Made by a program: the position numbers. A DNA stretch of 64,000 nt from a virus (Duplodnaviria > Heunggongvirae > Uroviricota > Caudoviricetes): the IMG/VR virus record IMGVR_UViG_2703718819_000007; one strand, given 5' to 3'. This document shows positions 18,001 to 27,000 of the stretch, piece by piece. The stretch's first letter is position 1, and every line of letters begins with the position of its first letter.

Positions 18001-21000
18001 AGCTTGCTGGAATAAATTTCAATCTTACCGGAAGGTGTTTTAAGTGGATTTGCCTCGGGGTCGTCACGAAATGCTTTGTAGGCGACAAAATGACCATTGG
18101 GATCTTTACGCTTATAGATACCCATTTTTTTCAGTTCGTCGTAAGACGGTAACGCCGGATCTTTGGCAAGCATTTTGGCGTACAGATGTTGTAACCATTG
18201 TTCCTGCGTGCGACCTTCAGTGAACTTTTGATAGACGTCAGGTCCAAGACGTTTCGCGACTTCACTCAGGATCCAGTAAATCGGTTTGCGTTCGAATTTT
18301 TCGCTGGTGACAGGCTGGAGGAAAATGAGATATCCCATGTTACCGGCGTAGTCGTTAGGAATAATATCTTCCTGCTCAACGGTCATCAGGTCTGGCAGCA
18401 GAATGTCGGCATATTTTGCCGATGAGGTCATAAAGTTTTCGATGACCACAATCATTTCGCATTTCGATTCGTCCTGCAGAATTTCATGCGTTTTGTTGAT
18501 GTCAGAATGCTGATTAACGAGGGTATTTCCCGCGTAGTTCCAGATGGACTCCACTGTCAGACGGATGGACGGACTTGAAGTAGTTGACTCAACGCTACTT
18601 AAGGTCCTGATATGACTGACATTAACCATGACAATACTGTATATCCATCCAGTTCTTTCTCTGGGTCTCCCTATCTGTATCAGCAAGTCTACACCTCAAG
18701 TCCTGACACAAGGCTGACACAAATCAACCTACTCGGCGTGGCTTGCTCGCTACTTGCTAAGCCTCAGTTAGTCCGTAGAGCCAATGGTCGATATACTATC
18801 CGCTTCAGACTCAAGGGACAGACCATCCCGTTTCTTTCAGTATCGACCCGAAGCACAGACAGGAGAGTAGCCACAATGCGTCAGAGAGAGCTTGCAGCCA
18901 CAGCTAAGTCCTTCATGTTGGATAGGCCTGATGTCTCGCTACAGGAGCTTACAGAGCACCTCCGGTCTATGGCTGAGCAGTTCCTGACAGACGCTAGTGA
19001 CGATTACTGGAATGGACTTGAGGTCGCTACTTTGGTGGACGAGAAGTCCAACCTGAAGGAGCTAGCCGCTACGCAAGCCTTAAGTCTGGACCAGCAGAAG
19101 GGCATAAGGTTAGCGCTTGAAGTCCTGACCGCAGCACAGCAGAGGGTAGACACTGGTGATACCTCTGGTCTGATTAAGCTGATTGATGATAATAACCATA
19201 CTGATTACTCAACTATAGGCGACTCTACGTCAATTCTGAAGAATGAGCAGGGGGATAGACCAGCAGTTTTCACACAGGAGCCCCAACCTGAGGTCACTAT
19301 CGCTGACCAACCAGCTATCTGTAGTTTTTCTGAGCTAGTGTCCTCGCTGCTGGCTGAGAAGGTCCAGACCCTGAAGTCATCCAGCTACAAGGACCTGTCG
19401 TCCTCACTGAATACCGTCTCTCGGTTCTTACCTGAAGACATGGACCTGATGTCCCGCTCTGAGTGGCTGGCTGTCAGGGACGCTATGCTGGCTTCTGAGG
19501 TGAGACCGTCGACGATTAACAAGCTGCTGACTAAGGCGAAGATGTGTCTTGACTACGGTCTGATGAATGGGCAACTTGAGGGCCGCAACCCTATTGAACG
19601 GATGAAGCTGACCAAGGATATCGACTCCAAGCGCAGAGCGTTCACAGACGAGGAGCTGGAGAGACTTCTGGTCCGTGTTGAGGCTGAGTATCAGTTCACA
19701 CGACACACGGCTCACACGACCTCTGAGGCCCGTAGATGGGCGTCTCTGGTGTCTGTAGTTACTGGCGCTCGGTCTGCTGAGGTCTGCCACCTGACTAAAC
19801 GTGACATTGTAACCTTAGACAATGGACTGGTCTGTATCGACATCAACGAAGATGGGGACGGTAAGTCTGTGAAGAACAAGCATTCAGTCCGACTTGTGCC
19901 GTTGACCGATGGGGCCTGTGGTCTTGACCTGAAGTCCTTCCTCGAATGGGTAGACATGCAGCCTGACGAGGGTCCTCTCTTCGGGATGACTCCAAGCGCA
20001 TACTCTAGCTGGTTTAACTCTAGGGTCCTGACTGAGGCCCTAGGAGACTCTCAGGATGTCTCTCTCCACAGTCTGAGGCATTGGCTGGCGACCCGCATGA
20101 AAGAGCGTGGAGTCAATCTGGTGGATGCTCAGGGCATCTTAGGCCATAGCAGTCAGTCCATTACGTATGACCTGTACGGGAAAGGACATGCAGTCCAGAG
20201 ACTGGCTGAGGTGCTGAAGACAGCTTTACTTTAAGTAGGAAGACCCAAGGTGGAGACCATATACGGCTTGATGGTTGAGACCTTGGGTCACTGAAGTCTG
20301 ACTGAAGTTAGGGAGGGTGATAATAATCATAATCCCTCCTGACTATAGGCCCACTGGTTCGCCTTCGGCTGTCCGACTCTAAGTCTGTCTGTGGTCTTAT
20401 TTAAACTGCGTCCTAAACTCCAGTCCCTCCAAATTCCTATGGTCTCCTCTTGACATTCCTGTTTAACTGTGAGTCGCCTCTGGTCTCTCTTTATATATAC
20501 TTCCTTAATTCCTGAGGCGTCTTTAGTCCTTGACATTCTGTCCAACCTGTGAGTCACATCCGGTCCTCCCTCTTTATATTTACTTCCTTAATTCCTAGGG
20601 TCGCCTTAATCCTTGACATCCAGTCCAGCCTGTGAGTCACATCCTGTCGCGCTACTGTATGCATCACCAGTGGTGGACTTGATTATCACTATAGGGGAAC
20701 CAACTAATTCAACGACAGGAGATACTCTATGGCACGACCAATCGCAACTCACGACAACACGTTCACCAAAGCCTACTTGCAGCAGCACTGCGGGGACCTG
20801 CTGTCATTCGATGGTCAGGGTGACTTGAGTGGCTGGCTGGATGATGTCCTTACTGGTGCTGGTCGCCTGAGCGAATCAATGGCAAGCAATACCAAGCCTG
20901 TCAGCCCATACTTGATTCTGACCCAACTACTAACGCACGACACATTAACTGTAAGCGCTGTGCAGGAGTCCCTGAGCCGTAAGCGTGTTGCCTTGGGTGA

Positions 21001-24000: not shown

Positions 24001-27000
24001 ATTATCGCTCATGAGAGCCAACTGAAAGCACTGTCCCGTCTGGCTGCTAAGCAAGGCTTCTCCGGTGAAGACGCTATCGTCGATATGCTGGGAACAGACA
24101 TCGCCTACTACAACGGTGAAGACAAGGGTGTATTCATGCTGGCTAAACGCTTCACGGCTCTGAGCTTCGGTTGCTTCCGTCACGATGGCGAGAATATTAC
24201 GGTCGTCCTTTCACGTGATGGCGACTCTCAGTCCCACGACTTGGAAATCCTCGGTAAAGTGTACGTTGTCGCTGAAGCTGCTACGACCATCAAGATGGGC
24301 ACTGGCTCAGCTACTGCCGTCCTGCCTGTAGTCAAACGCCTGAAGTTCACCAAGACCGAAGCGTAAGACCAATGGGTAAGAGCATTAGTAAAGGCTTCAG
24401 GTCCATCGCCAAGGGCCTGACAGGTGGTGGTGGGACTCAAGGTGGGGCTTCGGTCCCGCCTCCTGTAGCTCCTCCTGTAGCTCCTCCAGATGACGCTCAG
24501 CAAGCTGTAGTCGATACCCAAGGTCAGGAGACCGAGGGAGGTAAGACCATGAGCAGAGGTAAGTCTGGACTGAATATCAGCAGGACTTCAGGTGGTGGCC
24601 TGTCACTGTGATTAAGACATCTATACAGCCTGTGGAGGGTGGACGATATCAAGCAACAATCTGGATGACACGCAGAGTCTATAAGCGGCTATGCTGGTCA
24701 CTGGCTGAAGCTGAACAGTGGGTGAGACGTAAAGTGCCTACCGTTCAATCGTTCCAATCATCATGATAACTATGGTCTGGACCAATGGTCTGGACCTTTG
24801 TTTTGTACTAGTTATCTAGTGCAGTAGTACAATAGACGAAGGAGGCTTTATGTCCATGACTTCCGCAGACCTAAGGTCCCTCCTGACTCTGGTCTATAAA
24901 CTCGTGCTCCTCTCTGTGGGTCTCTATATGGTCCTCTCCGGTCGACTCGGTGTGAATGTATTCGACACTCTGTCTAAGGCTGTGGGTGGGCTTCTGGGGG
25001 CTTAGGTTTGGACTCACAGTGGGACCGATGGTTTCTGACAGAAAAATGTGAATGACCATCTAATACATTAAGCCAGCAGACTTCTCCCCCATAGCCCCGC
25101 CTCAAGTCCAGACCGAGGCCACCGGGGTCCTGACCAGCCGTCTAGACATCCCGTCTAATGACACAAGGCTGACACAAAGCCTGACACAAAGTCCTTGACT
25201 CAATGCAGGACCTCAGACCTACTAAGGGTCCGCTTCAAGTCCTTGAAGTTCCAGATGAACTTAATGGGCACATCCAGTTTATCTTTGCCGCGGACGCCGT
25301 CGCGGATTGCCGTCATTTGCGGACCATGATCGATAGCATCTGTCCAGCTGAAGCAGGAGATTGACATTTTGACCGGATTATCCAGCACCGGCAGGCGTTC
25401 TATGGTAATGGTATAGGTCGATTCACGCGCGCCACTATTTCCGCCGCTGATGCCGACATTGCCCGTCAAAATAGGTAACATAGCAATAGCGCGTGCAGTC
25501 AGTTCGCCGTTTGCCTGGCGTTGCGGCCCCCAGCCCTGGCAGATATAAGCGGGTTTTGCTGTGCCAATTTCACGCGCCAGTTTGATGATACGGTCTACCG
25601 GGATACCGGTAATTTGCGAAGCCCACTGCGGCGTTTTCGCTGTGTTATCATCACCTTCACCAAGAATATAGGCTTTATAGTGACTATTTTTGGGTGCATC
25701 TGCGGGTAAGGTTTTTTCGTCATAGCCGACGCAGTATTTATCGAGAAAAGGTTGATCAACGAGATTTTCGTTAATCAATACCCAGGCAATACCCGCAACC
25801 AGCGCGGCATCGGTGCCCGGGCGAATAGGGAGCCATTCATCTTCACGACCAGCAGCCGTATCGGTATATCGCGGATCGATAGCAATCATTTTGGCGTTCG
25901 ATTTCTCGCGCGCTTTTTCAAGAAGATAAGTGATGCCACCGCCGCTCATGCGGGTTTCTGCCGGGTTGTTACCAAACATCACGACCAGCTTGCTGTTTTC
26001 AATATCCGTGGTGCTGTTGCCATCATTACTGCCGTAGGTGTAGGGCATGGCACAGGAAATTTGCGCGGTGCTGTAGGAGCCATACTGATTGAGTGAACCG
26101 CCGTAGCAGTTCATCAGGCGTTTGACCGCCGAGGCTGATGGCGAAGAGCGGGTCATATTGCCGCCAACGATCCCCGAAGAGTACTGAATATATACAGCCT
26201 CATTGCCATATTGTTCGACGGTTTTCTTCAGGCTACTGGCGATAGTATCCAGGGCTTCATCCCAGCTAATCCGTTCGAATTTGCCTTCGCCGCGTTTGCC
26301 CACGCGTTTCATTGGGTAATTCAAGCGATCGGGATGATTAATACGCCGACGGATGGATCGACCACGCAAACAGGCGCGTACTTGATGATTGCCATACTCG
26401 TCGCTGCCGGTGTTGTCAGTTTCCACCCAGGTGACTTCATTATCTTTAACATGTAGACGAAGTGCACAGCGGCTACCACAGTTGACGGAACAGGCACCCC
26501 AGATCACTTTTTCGCTGGCCTGTTGTACCGCTGCCGCTGCACTGCGCAGGGTGAACGGTAAAGAAAAACCGCCTGCAGCCAGCGCCAGAGAACCTATCGC
26601 GGTTGATTTAACGAGTGTTCTGCGGCTGATGCCCACCATTCGGTCATTTTTGGACATAACTCACTCCCTGTTCTTTATCGTTATATAAATGTTTATATAT
26701 TGAATATTTAGCGCGCTAACAATAGAGGGAGTCTACCCATTTTGGGTTAAGAATTATTAATCCATATCAATAGAAGGGTATGAGTAATAAGGTGGGATTA
26801 TGTTGTATGTTCAAATCGCCGGATGTGTCGTATCCGGCGTTCAGTCGATAATGTATTACTGCGGTTCGGCAGGCGCGCCATCCTGGGTAGACTGCGCGGG
26901 AGCAGAGACGTTACCGCTGGTGGTGCGGGTATAGAGAATTTTATGCGTATCATTAGCGCAATGGCCGACGACCTGGGAATCAGGCTGATCAACCTGGTCA

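What the first reader, a model, noticed from the sequence alone, without database searches (positions are those of the whole stretch)
18536..25257. Integrase-bearing islet with phage-RNA-polymerase-type promoters, inserted inside ynfE
A ~6.7-kb element splits ynfE precisely. The 11-bp AGTTCCAGATG is present at both junctions, and joining the flanks restores the ynfE reading frame. The element carries a tyrosine integrase, TGACACAA arm-type repeats near both ends, three tandem TTGACA repeat units, two T7-group-like promoter motifs (ATCACTATAGGGA/G), and nine short plus-strand genes, but no RNA polymerase, capsid, terminase or recognisable replication gene. This fits a helper-dependent satellite or a defence/abortive-infection islet whose genes switch on only when a T7-like phage supplies its RNA polymerase. 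I do not recall a described E. coli element of this kind.
Basis: partly seen in the sequence, partly recalled or inferred. Interest (0 to 1): 0.9.

Follow-up and report, generated by a model that had tools for sequence, protein, structure and literature searches.

The report
Satellite of T7-like phages in ynfE
A 6.7-kb integrated element that splits the E. coli gene ynfE looks like a parasite ("satellite") of K1F-type T7-like phages: it carries that phage group's own promoters, a copy of its DNA-end packaging signals and a private capsid gene, and no satellite of this phage group turned up in the literature I could search.

Summary
An 11-bp repeat bounds a 6,711-bp insert in ynfE. Removing the insert in silico gives the intact gene found in 5,112 of 5,426 complete E. 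coli genomes.

The two promoter motifs are not chance. P2 (21106-21128) scores 35 bits on a matrix built from 19 real promoters of the Kayfunavirus phages GA2A and K1F, which themselves score 31-38.

Relatives in Citrobacter, Kluyvera, Leclercia, Proteus and a metagenome carry other T7-group promoter types at the same positions. Some have two types in tandem. Three of these other types match real ~38-40-kb phages or phage contigs (CR8, GW1-like, Vibrio N4).

The element also copies the helper's genome-terminus motif (25024-25120) and its end-of-terminal-repeat ATCTGTA site (18673-18679). These two signals become a ~326-bp unit only across the excised attP junction.

The 328-aa protein is an HK97-fold capsid protein. 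The 79-aa protein is 42% identical to helper gp7.3. There is no RNA polymerase, replication, portal or terminase gene.

Best reading: a new family of satellites of virulent T7-like phages, switched on by the helper's RNA polymerase. Nothing here is tested experimentally, and no free or packaged form was found.

The parts
18536..18546 (+). attL core (AGTTCCAGATG), left junction inside ynfE
   Evidence: Exactly two copies in the window. Excision in silico gives the natural empty site.
18584..18594 (+). TTGACTCAACG, paired with TTGACTCAATG at 25195-25205. The two are direct repeats flanking the core. Possibly extra Int/accessory sites or a promoter -35.
   Evidence: Read directly from the sequence. 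The right-hand copy is conserved in L002 and L085. Function is inferred.
18654..18683 (+). End-of-terminal-repeat / concatemer-junction mimic, tctctgggtctCCCTATCTGTAtcag. The ATCTGTA core is at 18673-18679, in the same orientation as P1 and P2.
   Evidence: 86.7% identity over 30 bp to K1F 163-190. The block (c/t)cctATCTGTA is aligned in T7, GA2A, K1F, CR8 and 9 elements. In T7 this is the class II RNAP pause/termination signal at the concatemer junction (bioRxiv 10.1101/2021.01.11.426313; PMC3276506).
18704..18722 (+). Two TGACACAA repeats 11 bp apart (putative P' arm-type integrase sites)
   Evidence: (G)ACACAA pairs are conserved in L002, L083 and L085.
18612..20234 (+). Tyrosine integrase (540 aa as the longest ORF)
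   Evidence: PF00589 E 1.7e-14 and phrog_1 E 4.7e-43. Not preceded by a phage-type promoter.
20306..20344 (+). Stem-loop GGGAGGGtgataataatcataaTCCCTCC, shared with helper phages. Function unknown.
   Evidence: 27/28 identical to GA2A 39771-39798 (E 1.6e-6). That site lies about 120 bp downstream of the phage's last (phiOR-like) promoter. Folds at -16.2 kcal/mol, z -3.4. Analogous hairpins occur in CR8, T7 and element L085.
20449..20648 (+). 83-bp unit x 2.5. Each unit has TTGACA, the palindrome TGTGAGTC(A/G)CA and an A+T-rich TTTATATA block. May be host-type promoters with an operator, or iterons.
   Evidence: TRF score 245. Two units are present in L002. The sigma-70 consensus scan gives no convincing -10.
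20677..20699 (+). P1, a phage-RNAP-type promoter (-17..+6, +1 = 20694) upstream of the 122-aa gene. It is a variant of the Kayfunavirus consensus, with mismatches at -13 and -11.
   Evidence: PWM score 21.1 bits. The best score in shuffled 64-kb windows is 18.3; genuine phage sites score 30.9-37.7. Conserved in relatives L003-L005 and L077.
20729..21097 (+). 122-aa protein, the only gene between P1 and P2. Function unknown; a DNA-binding regulator or excision factor is a guess.
   Evidence: phrog_23123 E 1e-8, unknown function. Weak homologues in N4-like and 7-11-like phages. Present only in part of the family.
21106..21128 (+). P2, a consensus Kayfunavirus (K1F-type) phage-RNAP promoter, CCTAAACTATCACTATAGGGAAG (+1 = 21123)
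   Evidence: PWM score 35.0 bits, inside the range of the 19 real GA2A/K1F promoters. 26 of 27 aligned positions match the GA2A promoter just upstream of its capsid gene.
21129..21527 (+). ~400-nt untranslated leader downstream of P2. A possible transcript-primed replication start, which is inferred.
   Evidence: No ORF and no Rfam match.
21528..22527 (+). Variable cargo: 171-aa and 164-aa proteins of unknown function
   Evidence: No Pfam, PHROG, PADLOC, PDB or phage match. Other copies carry KilA-N, Rha, AP2 or DUF4145 genes at or near this position.
22534..22707 (+). 57-aa protein, part of the conserved core with the next two genes
   Evidence: 43-100% identical homologues in 13 of the 14 related element loci compared (L085 is the exception). 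No family match.
22804..23295 (+). 163-aa protein, a putative scaffolding protein. Assigned by position and composition only.
   Evidence: A gene of 135-192 aa immediately upstream of the capsid gene in every relative examined. No similarity to helper gp9.
23380..24366 (+). 328-aa HK97-fold major capsid protein
   Evidence: AF2 pLDDT 84.9, pTM 0.80. Foldseek PDB and BFVD top hits are capsid or encapsulin proteins, E about 1e-9, probability 1.0. No sequence relation to helper gp10 (hhalign probability 0.1).
24372..24611 (+). 79-aa homologue of T7-group virion protein gp7.3
   Evidence: 42% identical to GA2A gp7.3, E 1e-14. phrog_1320 E 1.8e-11.
24608..24766 (+). 52-aa ORF of unknown function
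   Evidence: Conserved in L077 and L101.
24774..24806 (+). Terminator-like stem-loop followed by a T-run, after the structural genes
24850..25005 (+). 51-aa hydrophobic ORF, the last gene before the terminus mimic. Its position matches phage gene 19.5.
   Evidence: ORF list. 79-96% identical homologues in L002, L077, L083, L101 and L110. The analogy to gene 19.5 rests on position only.
25024..25120 (+). Mimic of the T7-group genome terminus. It comprises the pre-terminus block GATGGTTTCTGACAGAAAAATGTGAATGACC, a predicted cut next to ATCTAATACA (25058), then CTCCCCCATAGCCCC...AGTCCAGACCGAGGCC.
   Evidence: Local alignment to the GA2A concatemer junction scores 36, against 18.9 +/- 2.2 in shuffles, and spans the phage's physical end. 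Alignment of 4 phages and 9 elements. CCCCCATAG occurs once in the window.
25159..25189 (+). Three TGACACAA repeats at 11-12 bp spacing (putative P arm-type integrase sites)
25247..25257 (+). attR core (AGTTCCAGATG)

Best explanation
The element is an integrated satellite of virulent K1F-like (Kayfunavirus) T7-group phages. In effect it is a 6.7-kb miniature T7-type chromosome that has only what the helper cannot lend it.

Shown by sequence:
1. It sits in ynfE between 11-bp att cores and has an integrase and arm-type repeats.
2. All genes point one way, downstream of two promoters of the helper's single-subunit RNA polymerase. P2 is a full consensus site and P1 a variant.
3. It carries the helper's terminus motif near its right end and the helper's end-of-terminal-repeat ATCTGTA site near its left end. 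In a circle or concatemer these form one ~326-bp terminal-repeat-like unit, in the phage order and in the direction of transcription.
4. It encodes an HK97-fold capsid protein, a likely scaffold and a gp7.3 homologue.
5. It has no polymerase, replication, portal, tail or terminase genes.

Inferred:
- On infection the helper RNA polymerase fires P1 and P2.
- The transcripts prime copying by the helper replisome, as at T7 origins.
- Int, plus an unidentified directionality factor (possibly the 122-aa protein), excises the element and joins the two halves of the packaging unit.
- Helper RNAP pauses at ATCTGTA and helper terminase cuts at the mimicked terminus.
- The DNA is packaged either as a ~7.0-kb monomer with direct terminal repeats into small capsids built from the element's own coat protein on helper portal and tail, or as a ~40-kb hexamer into helper heads.
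- Helper yield is probably reduced.
For: Insertion and empty site.

Promoters:
- GA2A has nine and K1F ten phage promoters, all reading (c/a)CT(a/t)A(a/g)CTATCACT(a/g)TAGG.
- P2 scores 35.0 bits against 30.9-37.7 for the real sites. The next-best site in the window outside the element scores 8.1.

Co-variation with other helpers:
- The C. freundii and Kluyvera relatives carry TTTAAGGAAGGTACACTATAGGGAGAGACAC, identical over 31/31 and 35/36 bases to a Citrobacter phage CR8 promoter.
- Leclercia and Citrobacter copies carry tandem CCCTCACTATAGGG plus CTATCACTATAGGG promoters at both positions. The Proteus copy carries AACCCACACTATAGGGAGAC twice.
- These types occur repeatedly in 38-40-kb T7-like phage genomes (Cronobacter GW1-like, Vibrio N4).
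- A distant relative (26% capsid identity) has three TTAATTCCTACCACTATAGGGAGA sites.

Packaging mimicry. The same motifs are present in T7 itself. In L140 the terminus motif and ATCTGTA lie 275 bp apart and contiguous. For the role of the junction pause site in T7 packaging.

Proteins: the capsid fold and gp7.3 homology.

Population:
- DNA matching the element is found in 313 of 5426 E. coli genomes, always chromosomal.
- Of the 30 copies listed, those without IS insertions span 6.44-6.84 kb despite module swapping.
- Near-identical capsid proteins (90% cluster) occur in six genera.
Against: - No experiment exists. No excised, circular, linear or virion-derived copy was found: seven public contigs checked were all integrated or partial.
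- There is no DNA match in 50,697 phage records. The only copy found in IMG/VR (L077) lies in a 72.9-kb contig, far larger than the element.
- int has no phage-type promoter and no excisionase is recognisable.
- P1 departs from the consensus at -13 and -11.
- The coat protein has no detectable sequence relation to the helper's coat protein. How it would assemble on a helper portal is unknown.
- The scaffold assignment is positional only.
- ATCTGTA differs from T7's strictly required ATCTGTT, although the putative helpers carry the same variant.
- The similarity of the terminus region is short: 39 bp at 82%, E 0.04 against one genome.
Confidence: 0.75

Rival explanations
1. A defence or abortive-infection islet. 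The phage-type promoters act only as an infection sensor that turns on toxic or decoy proteins (for example a capsid-like decoy and a gp7.3 mimic that poison helper assembly). The element is not itself packaged or transferred by the phage.
For: The genes lie under the phage promoters, so they would be expressed only in infected cells. The cargo module is variable, as in defence hotspots, with KilA-N, Rha, AP2 and DUF4145 variants. The gp7.3 homologue could interfere with tail assembly. No packaged form was found.
Against: This reading does not explain conserved mimicry of the phage terminus and of the end-of-repeat pause site, in the phage order and orientation. It does not explain the narrow size range, or the spread of >=90%-identical capsid genes across six genera. 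There is no PADLOC hit. Interference and satellite transfer are not mutually exclusive; only the 'no transfer' version is a rival.
Confidence: 0.1
2. A decayed remnant of an integrating T7-like prophage that lost its RNA polymerase and most other genes.
For: T7-style promoters, terminus motifs, one-directional gene order and a gp7.3 homologue. Temperate T7-like phages with integrases exist (PMC10134795, listed).
Against: Only gp7.3 is homologous to T7-group proteins. The coat protein is unrelated in sequence to gp10 and the 163-aa protein to gp9. The same compact int/57-aa/163-aa/capsid architecture with intact ORFs recurs in many genera (L085 lacks a detectable 57-aa match), down to 25% capsid identity. 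Promoters are swapped to match different lytic phage genera. Remnants would be heterogeneous in size and content.
Confidence: 0.04
3. A capsid-forming island that hijacks the tails of some unrelated (non-T7) phage. The T7-type motifs would be incidental, or acquired by recombination with no role.
For: It encodes its own coat protein, as cf-PICIs do.
Against: It lacks the portal, protease, connector and small-terminase genes that define cf-PICIs. The promoter motifs are helper-grade in score, positionally conserved, and co-vary with real phage genera.
Confidence: 0.04
4. An encapsulin-like nanocompartment or other cellular use of an HK97-fold shell, carried on a mobile element.
For: Encapsulins are among the top fold matches.
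Against: No cargo enzyme is present. The genes are under phage promoters, the element carries phage terminus mimicry, and a gp7.3 homologue sits next to the shell gene. One family member carries a Big_2 domain, which matches PHROG families of phage tail and head-decoration proteins.
Confidence: 0.02

Closest known systems
Capsid-forming PICIs (cf-PICIs)
   Same: An integrated satellite that encodes its own HK97-fold coat protein (and probably a scaffold) rather than only remodelling helper capsids.
   Different: cf-PICIs are described as encoding all the proteins needed to make their small capsids and package their DNA, taking only tails from the helper (abstract of bioRxiv 10.1101/2022.09.08.507074, listed). 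From my own knowledge that set includes portal, protease, head-tail connectors and a small terminase, in elements of about 10-15 kb with temperate helpers. This element is 6.7 kb and has only coat, a scaffold-like gene, a 57-aa gene and gp7.3-like. It must borrow portal, terminase, tail, RNAP and replisome. Its putative helper is a virulent T7-group phage, and activation is through the helper's RNAP promoters.
PICMIs and PLEs (satellites of virulent phages)
   Same: Small integrase-bearing islands induced by a lytic helper. PICMIs have reduced gene content and package their DNA as a concatemer (PMC10803314, abstract listed).
   Different: PICMIs encode no genes for capsid remodelling (same abstract). 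From my own knowledge, PLEs remodel ICP1 coat protein and carry their own replication initiator. Neither is described, in the papers seen here, as using helper-RNAP promoters or as copying a T7-type terminal-repeat junction. No shared protein family was detected beyond the integrase class.
Laboratory T7 transducing plasmids (Chung & Hinkle 1990, J Mol Biol 216:911 and 927; cited from my own knowledge, not available in the library)
   Same: Plasmids that carry a T7 promoter-origin and the T7 concatemer junction are replicated and packaged by infecting T7. This element carries the natural equivalents of those two cis elements.
   Different: The element is a natural, integrating, self-transmissible version. 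It has its own coat protein and helper-type-specific, sometimes dual, promoters.
Integrated virophages such as Mavirus in Cafeteria (own knowledge)
   Same: The logic is the same: a silent integrated parasite carries promoters read only by the transcription machinery of the incoming helper virus, and encodes its own capsid.
   Different: Virophages are eukaryotic, have a different capsid fold (double jelly roll), encode their own replication and packaging enzymes, and share no homology with this element.
P4-like satellites
   Same: An enterobacterial integrative satellite that depends on helper virion genes. Its late genes are switched on by helper transcription factors.
   Different: From my own knowledge P4 has its own primase/replicase, Sid/Psu capsid-size factors and cos sites, and its helper is the temperate phage P2. 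No homologues of these were found here.

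Membership tests
Phage satellite (general definition) | Mobile element with its own integration module and att sites | tested here: met
   Integrase, 11-bp cores, arm-type repeats, and an exact empty site in 5112 genomes.
Phage satellite (general definition) | Lacks a complete set of virion, packaging and replication genes | tested here: met
   No RNAP, DNAP/primase, portal, terminase or tail genes in Pfam, PHROGs or NCBIfam.
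Phage satellite (general definition) | Cis or trans elements that tie it to a specific helper | tested here: met
   Helper-grade promoters, terminus and junction mimicry, and co-variation with other phage genera in relatives.
Phage satellite (general definition) | Helper-dependent induction, packaging and transfer demonstrated | not testable with these tools
   Needs infection experiments. No packaged or excised copies were found in public data.
T7-group (Kayfunavirus) phage-RNAP promoter | Match to the 23-bp consensus (-17..+6) at the level of genuine phage sites | tested here: met
   P2 scores 35.0 bits against 30.9-37.7 for 19 phage sites. P1 scores 21.1 bits, above all shuffles but below the phage range.
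T7-group (Kayfunavirus) phage-RNAP promoter | Transcription initiation by the cognate RNA polymerase | not testable with these tools
   Requires in vitro transcription or 5'-end mapping in infected cells.
HK97-fold major capsid protein | HK97 fold | tested here: met
   Confident model (pLDDT 84.9). In PDB and BFVD all 50 listed matches per library have probability 1.0, and nearly all named ones are capsid, head or encapsulin proteins.
HK97-fold major capsid protein | Assembles into a DNA-containing shell | not testable with these tools
   Needs EM or proteomics of lysates.
cf-PICI | Own portal, prohead protease, head-tail connectors and small terminase alongside the coat protein | tested here: not met
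   None detected. The element is only 6.7 kb.
Classical PICI / SaPI | Master repressor with divergent regulators, own primase/replication initiator and ori, terS or capsid-size (cpm/ccm) genes | tested here: not met
   No such families hit. All genes are co-directional.
P4-like satellite | alpha primase-helicase, sid/psu/delta, cos site | tested here: not met
   No matches.
Autographiviridae prophage (or remnant) | Single-subunit RNAP, T7-type DNAP/primase, gp8-gp12 structural genes homologous to the T7 group | tested here: not met
   Only gp7.3 is homologous. Coat versus gp10 gives hhalign probability 0.1.
Known anti-phage defence systems | Match to a PADLOC model | tested here: not met
   No hit for any of the ten proteins.

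The most novel reading that the evidence does not exclude
These islets would be a widespread, ancient family of natural mini-T7 chromosomes, and the first satellites described for Autographiviridae. Each copy senses infection through arrays of promoters for one or two helper RNA-polymerase specificities. It replicates on the helper replisome without any initiator of its own. It becomes packageable only after excision rebuilds a ~326-bp terminal-repeat unit across attP. It leaves as a ~7-kb molecule with direct terminal repeats, inside a small capsid made of its own unrelated HK97-fold coat protein assembled on the helper's portal and tail. This would spread it between enterobacterial genera and blunt T7-like phage infection, including therapeutic K1F-type phages.
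Probability: 0.45. Interest if true: 0.92.

Novelty: new variant of a known kind. Interest (0 to 1): 0.87.

Why it matters
T7-like phages are the textbook strictly lytic phages and are common in phage-therapy cocktails. Eight full-text searches found no satellite described for them.

If the reading is right, several things follow:
- About 4-6% of sequenced E. coli, and many other Enterobacterales, carry a hidden parasite of these phages. It could lower phage yield and move DNA between genera.
- It would be a bacterial case of a satellite that uses the helper's own RNA-polymerase promoters as its induction switch, sometimes two specificities in tandem. That gives a sequence-readable predictor of which phage genus parasitises which strain.
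- The element is a natural experiment on the minimal cis requirements for T7-type replication and packaging (promoter, terminus motif, junction pause site), a question left open since the 1990s plasmid-transduction work.
- The pairing of an unrelated coat protein with a foreign portal would be of interest for capsid assembly and for building small programmable transducing particles.

Tried and rejected
- DNA search of the whole islet against 50,697 phage records found nothing. tblastn of the 328-, 79-, 164- and 171-aa proteins also found nothing. The 79-aa result was a false negative, corrected by a direct comparison with seg filtering off.
- The first AF2 run, with a shallow alignment, failed (pLDDT 39.7). 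It was solved by adding distant homologues from the exhaustive profile search.
- PDB sequence searches of five proteins gave nothing useful.
- Rfam found nothing in the element.
- PADLOC gave no defence hit.
- A search for excised or packaged copies among ~6-8-kb public contigs found only integrated or partial forms.
- The Serratia-type promoter AAACCCCGACTATAGAGAG has no match in IMG/VR, so its helper is unknown.
- The sigma-70 scan does not support the three TTGACA units as canonical promoters, so I leave them as 'promoter/operator or iteron'.
- Base composition does not mark the islet as foreign.
- The hypothesis that the coat protein derives from T7 gp10 was rejected, as was 163-aa = gp9 by sequence.
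- Eight literature searches found no description of a satellite of T7-like phages. The only prior trace is ynfE listed among genes interrupted by integrative elements (PMC7192596).

Full report
**1. The observation**

AGTTCCAGATG occurs exactly twice in the 64-kb window, at 18536 and 25247. Deleting 18547-25257 restores a single 808-aa ynfE reading frame on the minus strand. The joined 800-bp flanks are found uninterrupted in 5112 of 5426 complete E. coli genomes, some at 100% identity, annotated as ynfE. So the in-silico excision product is the natural empty site.

DNA matching the islet is present in 313 of 5426 genomes, always on the chromosome. Of the 30 copies listed, those without IS insertions span 6.44-6.84 kb.

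The other listed features are real:
- a tyrosine integrase;
- five TGACACAA copies that occur nowhere else in the window;
- an 83-bp unit repeated 2.5 times, each copy with TTGACA;
- two CACTATAGG motifs, the only two in 64 kb;
- nine co-directional ORFs after int.

One statement is wrong: the element does encode a capsid protein (section 2).

**2. Gene content**

The proteins after int are 122, 171, 164, 57, 163, 328, 79, 52 and 51 aa long.

*The 328-aa protein.* It has no Pfam, PHROG, NCBIfam or PDB sequence match. An exhaustive profile search found 64 relatives. With 36 of these the AlphaFold model is confident (pLDDT 84.9, pTM 0.80). All 50 listed Foldseek matches in both PDB and BFVD have probability 1.0. 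The PDB ones are all HK97-fold capsid or encapsulin proteins (phi29, T5, Kp9, encapsulins), and the top BFVD hit is the minor capsid protein of Pseudomonas phage phiIBB-PF7A. It has no detectable sequence relation to the helper-type coat protein gp10 (hhalign probability 0.1).

*The 79-aa protein.* It is 42% identical over its full length to gp7.3 of phage GA2A (E 1e-14; phrog_1320 E 1.8e-11).

*The 163-aa protein.* A gene of 135-192 aa sits directly upstream of the coat gene in every relative examined. I call it a scaffold by position only, because it has no similarity to gp9.

*Core and cargo.* Across related loci the conserved core is int, the 57-aa protein, the 163-aa protein and the coat protein. 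The 122-aa and gp7.3-like genes occur in a subfamily, and the 171/164-aa region is variable cargo. Other copies carry KilA-N, Rha, AP2 or DUF4145 genes.

There is no RNA polymerase, DNA replication, portal, terminase or tail gene, and no PADLOC hit.

**3. The promoters identify a helper**

A scan of IMG/VR for TATCACTATAGGGRRA returned a group of 39-40.5-kb contigs that carry several copies of cTAAACTATCACTATAGG. These contigs are K1F-like phages: genus Kayfunavirus, subfamily Studiervirinae (for example Citrobacter phage SH3 and Escherichia phages GA2A, YZ1 and Bas105).

GA2A has nine such promoters and K1F ten. I built a position weight matrix from these 19 sites and scanned the window:

| Site | Score (bits) |
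|---|---|
| Real phage promoters | 30.9-37.7 |
| P2 (21106-21128) | 35.0 |
| P1 (20677-20699) | 21.1 |
| Next-best site in the window | 8.1 |
| Best site in 20 shuffled windows | 18.3 |

P2 matches 26 of 27 aligned positions of the GA2A promoter that lies just upstream of its capsid gene. The specificity positions differ from T7, so the predicted helper is Kayfunavirus, not T7 itself.

**4. Relatives carry other phages' promoters at the same positions**

This is the strongest evidence.

- The Citrobacter freundii element (L083, coat 41% identical, also in ynfE) and the Kluyvera element (L110) carry TTTAAGGAAGGTACACTATAGGGAGAGACAC. It is identical over 31/31 and 35/36 bases to a promoter of Citrobacter phage CR8, whose ten promoters share TAAGGAAGGTACACTATAGG.
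- Leclercia and Citrobacter portucalensis elements have tandem pairs of two specificities at both the P1 and P2 positions...CCCTCACTATAGGG..., then about 26 bp later ...CTATCACTATAGGG....
- The Kluyvera and C. freundii elements pair ACCCACACTATAG with the CR8 type.
- The Proteus element has two TTAATTAACCCACACTATAGGGAGAC sites.
- ACCCTCACTATAGGGA occurs three times each in two 39.7-39.9-kb contigs and twice in a third. One of them is Cronobacter phage GW1.
- AACCCACACTATAGGGAGA occurs six to eight times in Vibrio phage N4 and in a 39.9-kb contig.
- A distant relative (L140, coat about 26% identical with a Big_2 domain) has three TTAATTCCTACCACTATAGGGAGA sites.
- The Serratia element has two TAAACCCCGACTATAGAGAG sites, whose phage I could not find.

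**5. Packaging-signal mimicry**

*The right end.* Window 25024-25120 aligns with the phage concatemer junction across the physical genome end:
- GA2A: GATGAGTTTTGGACCAAAAGTTTGAGACCAC|ATCTCACAG...TCTCCCCATAGGCCC...AGTCCAGACCAAAGGCC
- Element: GATGGTTTCTGACAGAAAAATGTGAATGACC ATCTAATACA...TCTCCCCCATAGCCCC...AGTCCAGACCGAGGCC

The local alignment score is 36, against 18.9 +/- 2.2 for shuffles. BLAST gives 82% over 39 bp against K1F.

*The left end.* Window 18654-18683 (tctctgggtctCCCTATCTGTAtcag) matches the end of the phage terminal repeat: K1F tctctgagtctCTATCTGTAtcag, T7 gtgtCCCTATCTGTTacag. [quoted passage not shown] There the RNAP-lysozyme complex pauses and engages gp18/gp19 to start maturation and packaging (PMC3276506, citing Zhang & Studier 2004).

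Both motifs align in four phages and nine elements. Both lie on the + strand, the direction of P1 and P2.

*A split unit.* In the integrated state the two motifs are at opposite ends of the element. Across an attP junction they would form one unit: 25058-25257 plus 18547-18672, about 326 bp. This unit contains the arm sites and the core. It has the same order as a phage terminal repeat, which is 160-190 bp. In L140 the same two motifs are contiguous and about 275 bp apart, which supports treating them as one module.

*Co-variation with helper type.* Elements with Kayfunavirus-type promoters match the Kayfunavirus terminus best (scores 29-42, against 11-25 for T7 and CR8). Elements with CR8-type promoters match CR8 best (24 against 18-21).

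*A shared hairpin.* A 28-bp stem-loop (20312-20339) is 27/28 identical to one lying 120 bp downstream of GA2A's last promoter (E 1.6e-6). It has counterparts in K1F, CR8, T7 and the Serratia element. Its function is unknown.

**6. Mechanism**

Shown by sequence:
- the integration anatomy;
- one-directional genes behind helper-type promoters;
- terminus and junction mimicry;
- an own coat protein and a gp7.3 homologue;
- absence of polymerase, replication, portal and terminase genes.

Inferred from established T7 biology and from the anatomy:
- The infecting phage's RNAP fires P1 and P2.
- The transcripts prime the helper replisome. T7 origins are promoters, and plasmids with a T7 origin plus the concatemer junction are packaged by T7 (Chung & Hinkle 1990, own knowledge).
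- Int plus an unknown directionality factor excises the element.
- The rebuilt repeat unit is transcribed in the phage direction. RNAP pauses at ATCTGTA and helper terminase cuts at the mimicked terminus.

*Predicted product.* It is either a monomer of about 7.04 kb (6,711 bp plus the ~326-bp repeat) in a small capsid, or a hexamer. Six times 6.43-6.83 kb gives 38.6-41.0 kb, and the helper genomes are 38.8-41.3 kb. A rough volume scaling of my own from T7 (T=7, 40 kb, with internal core) gives about 7-8 kb for a T=3 shell. That makes the monomer/small-capsid option plausible, but this is an estimate, not a result.

*Open points.* These include how int is expressed, what the 122-aa and 57-aa proteins do, and whether the 83-bp repeats are host promoters with an operator or iterons. 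Each repeat has TTGACA, the palindrome TGTGAGTCACA and an A+T-rich block. The sigma-70 scan does not give a convincing -10.

**7. Rivals**

- *Pure defence islet.* This leaves the packaging mimicry, the size constraint and the intergeneric spread unexplained. The spread is shown by coat proteins in one 90%-identity cluster from Citrobacter, Enterobacter, Hafnia, Salmonella, E. coli and Proteus.
- *Prophage remnant.* This is contradicted by the unrelated coat protein, the conserved compact architecture down to about 25% coat identity, and the promoter swapping.
- *cf-PICI-like tail thief.* It lacks the defining head genes.
- *Encapsulin.* This does not fit the phage promoters or the gp7.3 neighbour.

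**8. Comparison with known systems, and novelty**

The element works like a satellite of a virulent phage, as PLE and PICMI do. It has its own coat protein, as cf-PICIs do. It fails the defining gene sets of PICI, cf-PICI and P4. Its activation logic, promoters of the helper's own polymerase, is closest to integrated virophages.

Eight full-text searches found no satellite of T7-like phages. The TIGER study lists ynfE among genes interrupted by integrative elements without characterising them. All database copies of the coat protein are annotated 'hypothetical protein'. I rate it a new variant of a known kind: a new satellite family with a new induction and packaging design.

**9. Caveats**

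Everything is inferred from sequence. No excised or packaged copy was found. P1 is sub-consensus. The terminus similarities are short. How the coat protein would interact with the helper portal is unknown.

Noticed in passing
L101 5455-5515 and 6010-6070; L103 2340-2400 and 2910-2970; L110 4630-4700 and 5330-5400; L006 3020-3080: Many relatives carry two phage-type promoters of different specificity in tandem, about 26-33 bp apart, at both promoter positions (for example CCCTCACTATAGGG followed by CTATCACTATAGGG). This suggests one element can respond to two helper genera.
   Followed up: partly
window 20449-20648: Each 83-bp repeat contains the palindrome TGTGAGTC(A/G)CA between TTGACA and an A+T-rich TTTATATA block. 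This looks like a binding site for a dimeric protein (operator or iteron). No binder was identified.
   Followed up: no
window 20312-20339; L081 39771-39798; L082 38982-39008; L094 ~38970-39005; L100 ~230-256; L085 12012-12045: A stem-loop with a conserved loop sequence is shared by the element and T7-group phages. In the phages it lies between the last phage promoter (phiOR-like) and gene 19.5. I know of no assigned function.
   Followed up: partly
L140 (Logan ERR5982074 contig, 12 kb): A distant relative whose coat protein (527 aa) is the family member likely to carry the fused Big_2 domain. It also has a T7 gp0.4-like domain protein, a ParE-like protein and an HNH_3 protein. Its terminus motif and ATCTGTA site are contiguous (about 3207-3488) instead of split by att.
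   Followed up: partly
L103, L104, L096, L112, L113 versus window, L101, L083, L110: The same capsid module is attached to two integrase clades, each only ~30% identical to the window's integrase. The elements carrying them have different left-end flanks, so the head module and the integration module recombine.
   Followed up: no
E. coli genomes H1, H4, H15-H19, H22, H23, H26, H28; L083 5009-7321; L005 6121-7334: A large share of copies are hit by IS66, IS3 or IS4 family insertions, sometimes inside the capsid gene. Many copies are probably dead.
   Followed up: no
L002 1-30 and 6620-6661: A divergent copy uses the core TAGTTCAGATTGAACT. This is a variant of the ynfE core, presumably in a ynfE/dmsA-family gene of another host. 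The integrase seems to target the conserved ...IWN... codons of this enzyme family.
   Followed up: no
L085 5991-6009 and 12486-12504 (Serratia marcescens): The Serratia relative integrates at AATAATCAGGAGAAGATTA, just upstream of a ferritin-like gene. It has two TAAACCCCGACTATAGAGAG promoters for which no phage was found in IMG/VR, which implies an unsampled T7-like Serratia phage type.
   Followed up: partly
L096 1765-2418: One E. coli-type variant carries a DUF4145 protein directly after int. It is a candidate defence cargo.
   Followed up: no
window 24608-24766: By eye the 52-aa ORF has an AP2-like pattern (GRYQATIW...SLAEAEQW). Pfam does not support this. The Serratia relative has a 124-aa ORF with a similar pattern at L085 11092-11463.
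   Followed up: no
window 15036-17462 and 17520-26657: The interrupted ynfE lies next to its intact paralogue ynfF. This may explain why loss of ynfE is tolerated. It also explains why short-read assemblies often break at the element's borders.
   Followed up: no
L034 (IMG/VR 15.7-kb contig): This contig holds a Kayfunavirus-type promoter (GGACTAAACTATCACTATAGGGAGAGG), homologues of the 164-aa and 57-aa proteins, and a ~31%-identical integrase. It is probably another member of the family, filed in IMG/VR as viral.
   Followed up: partly
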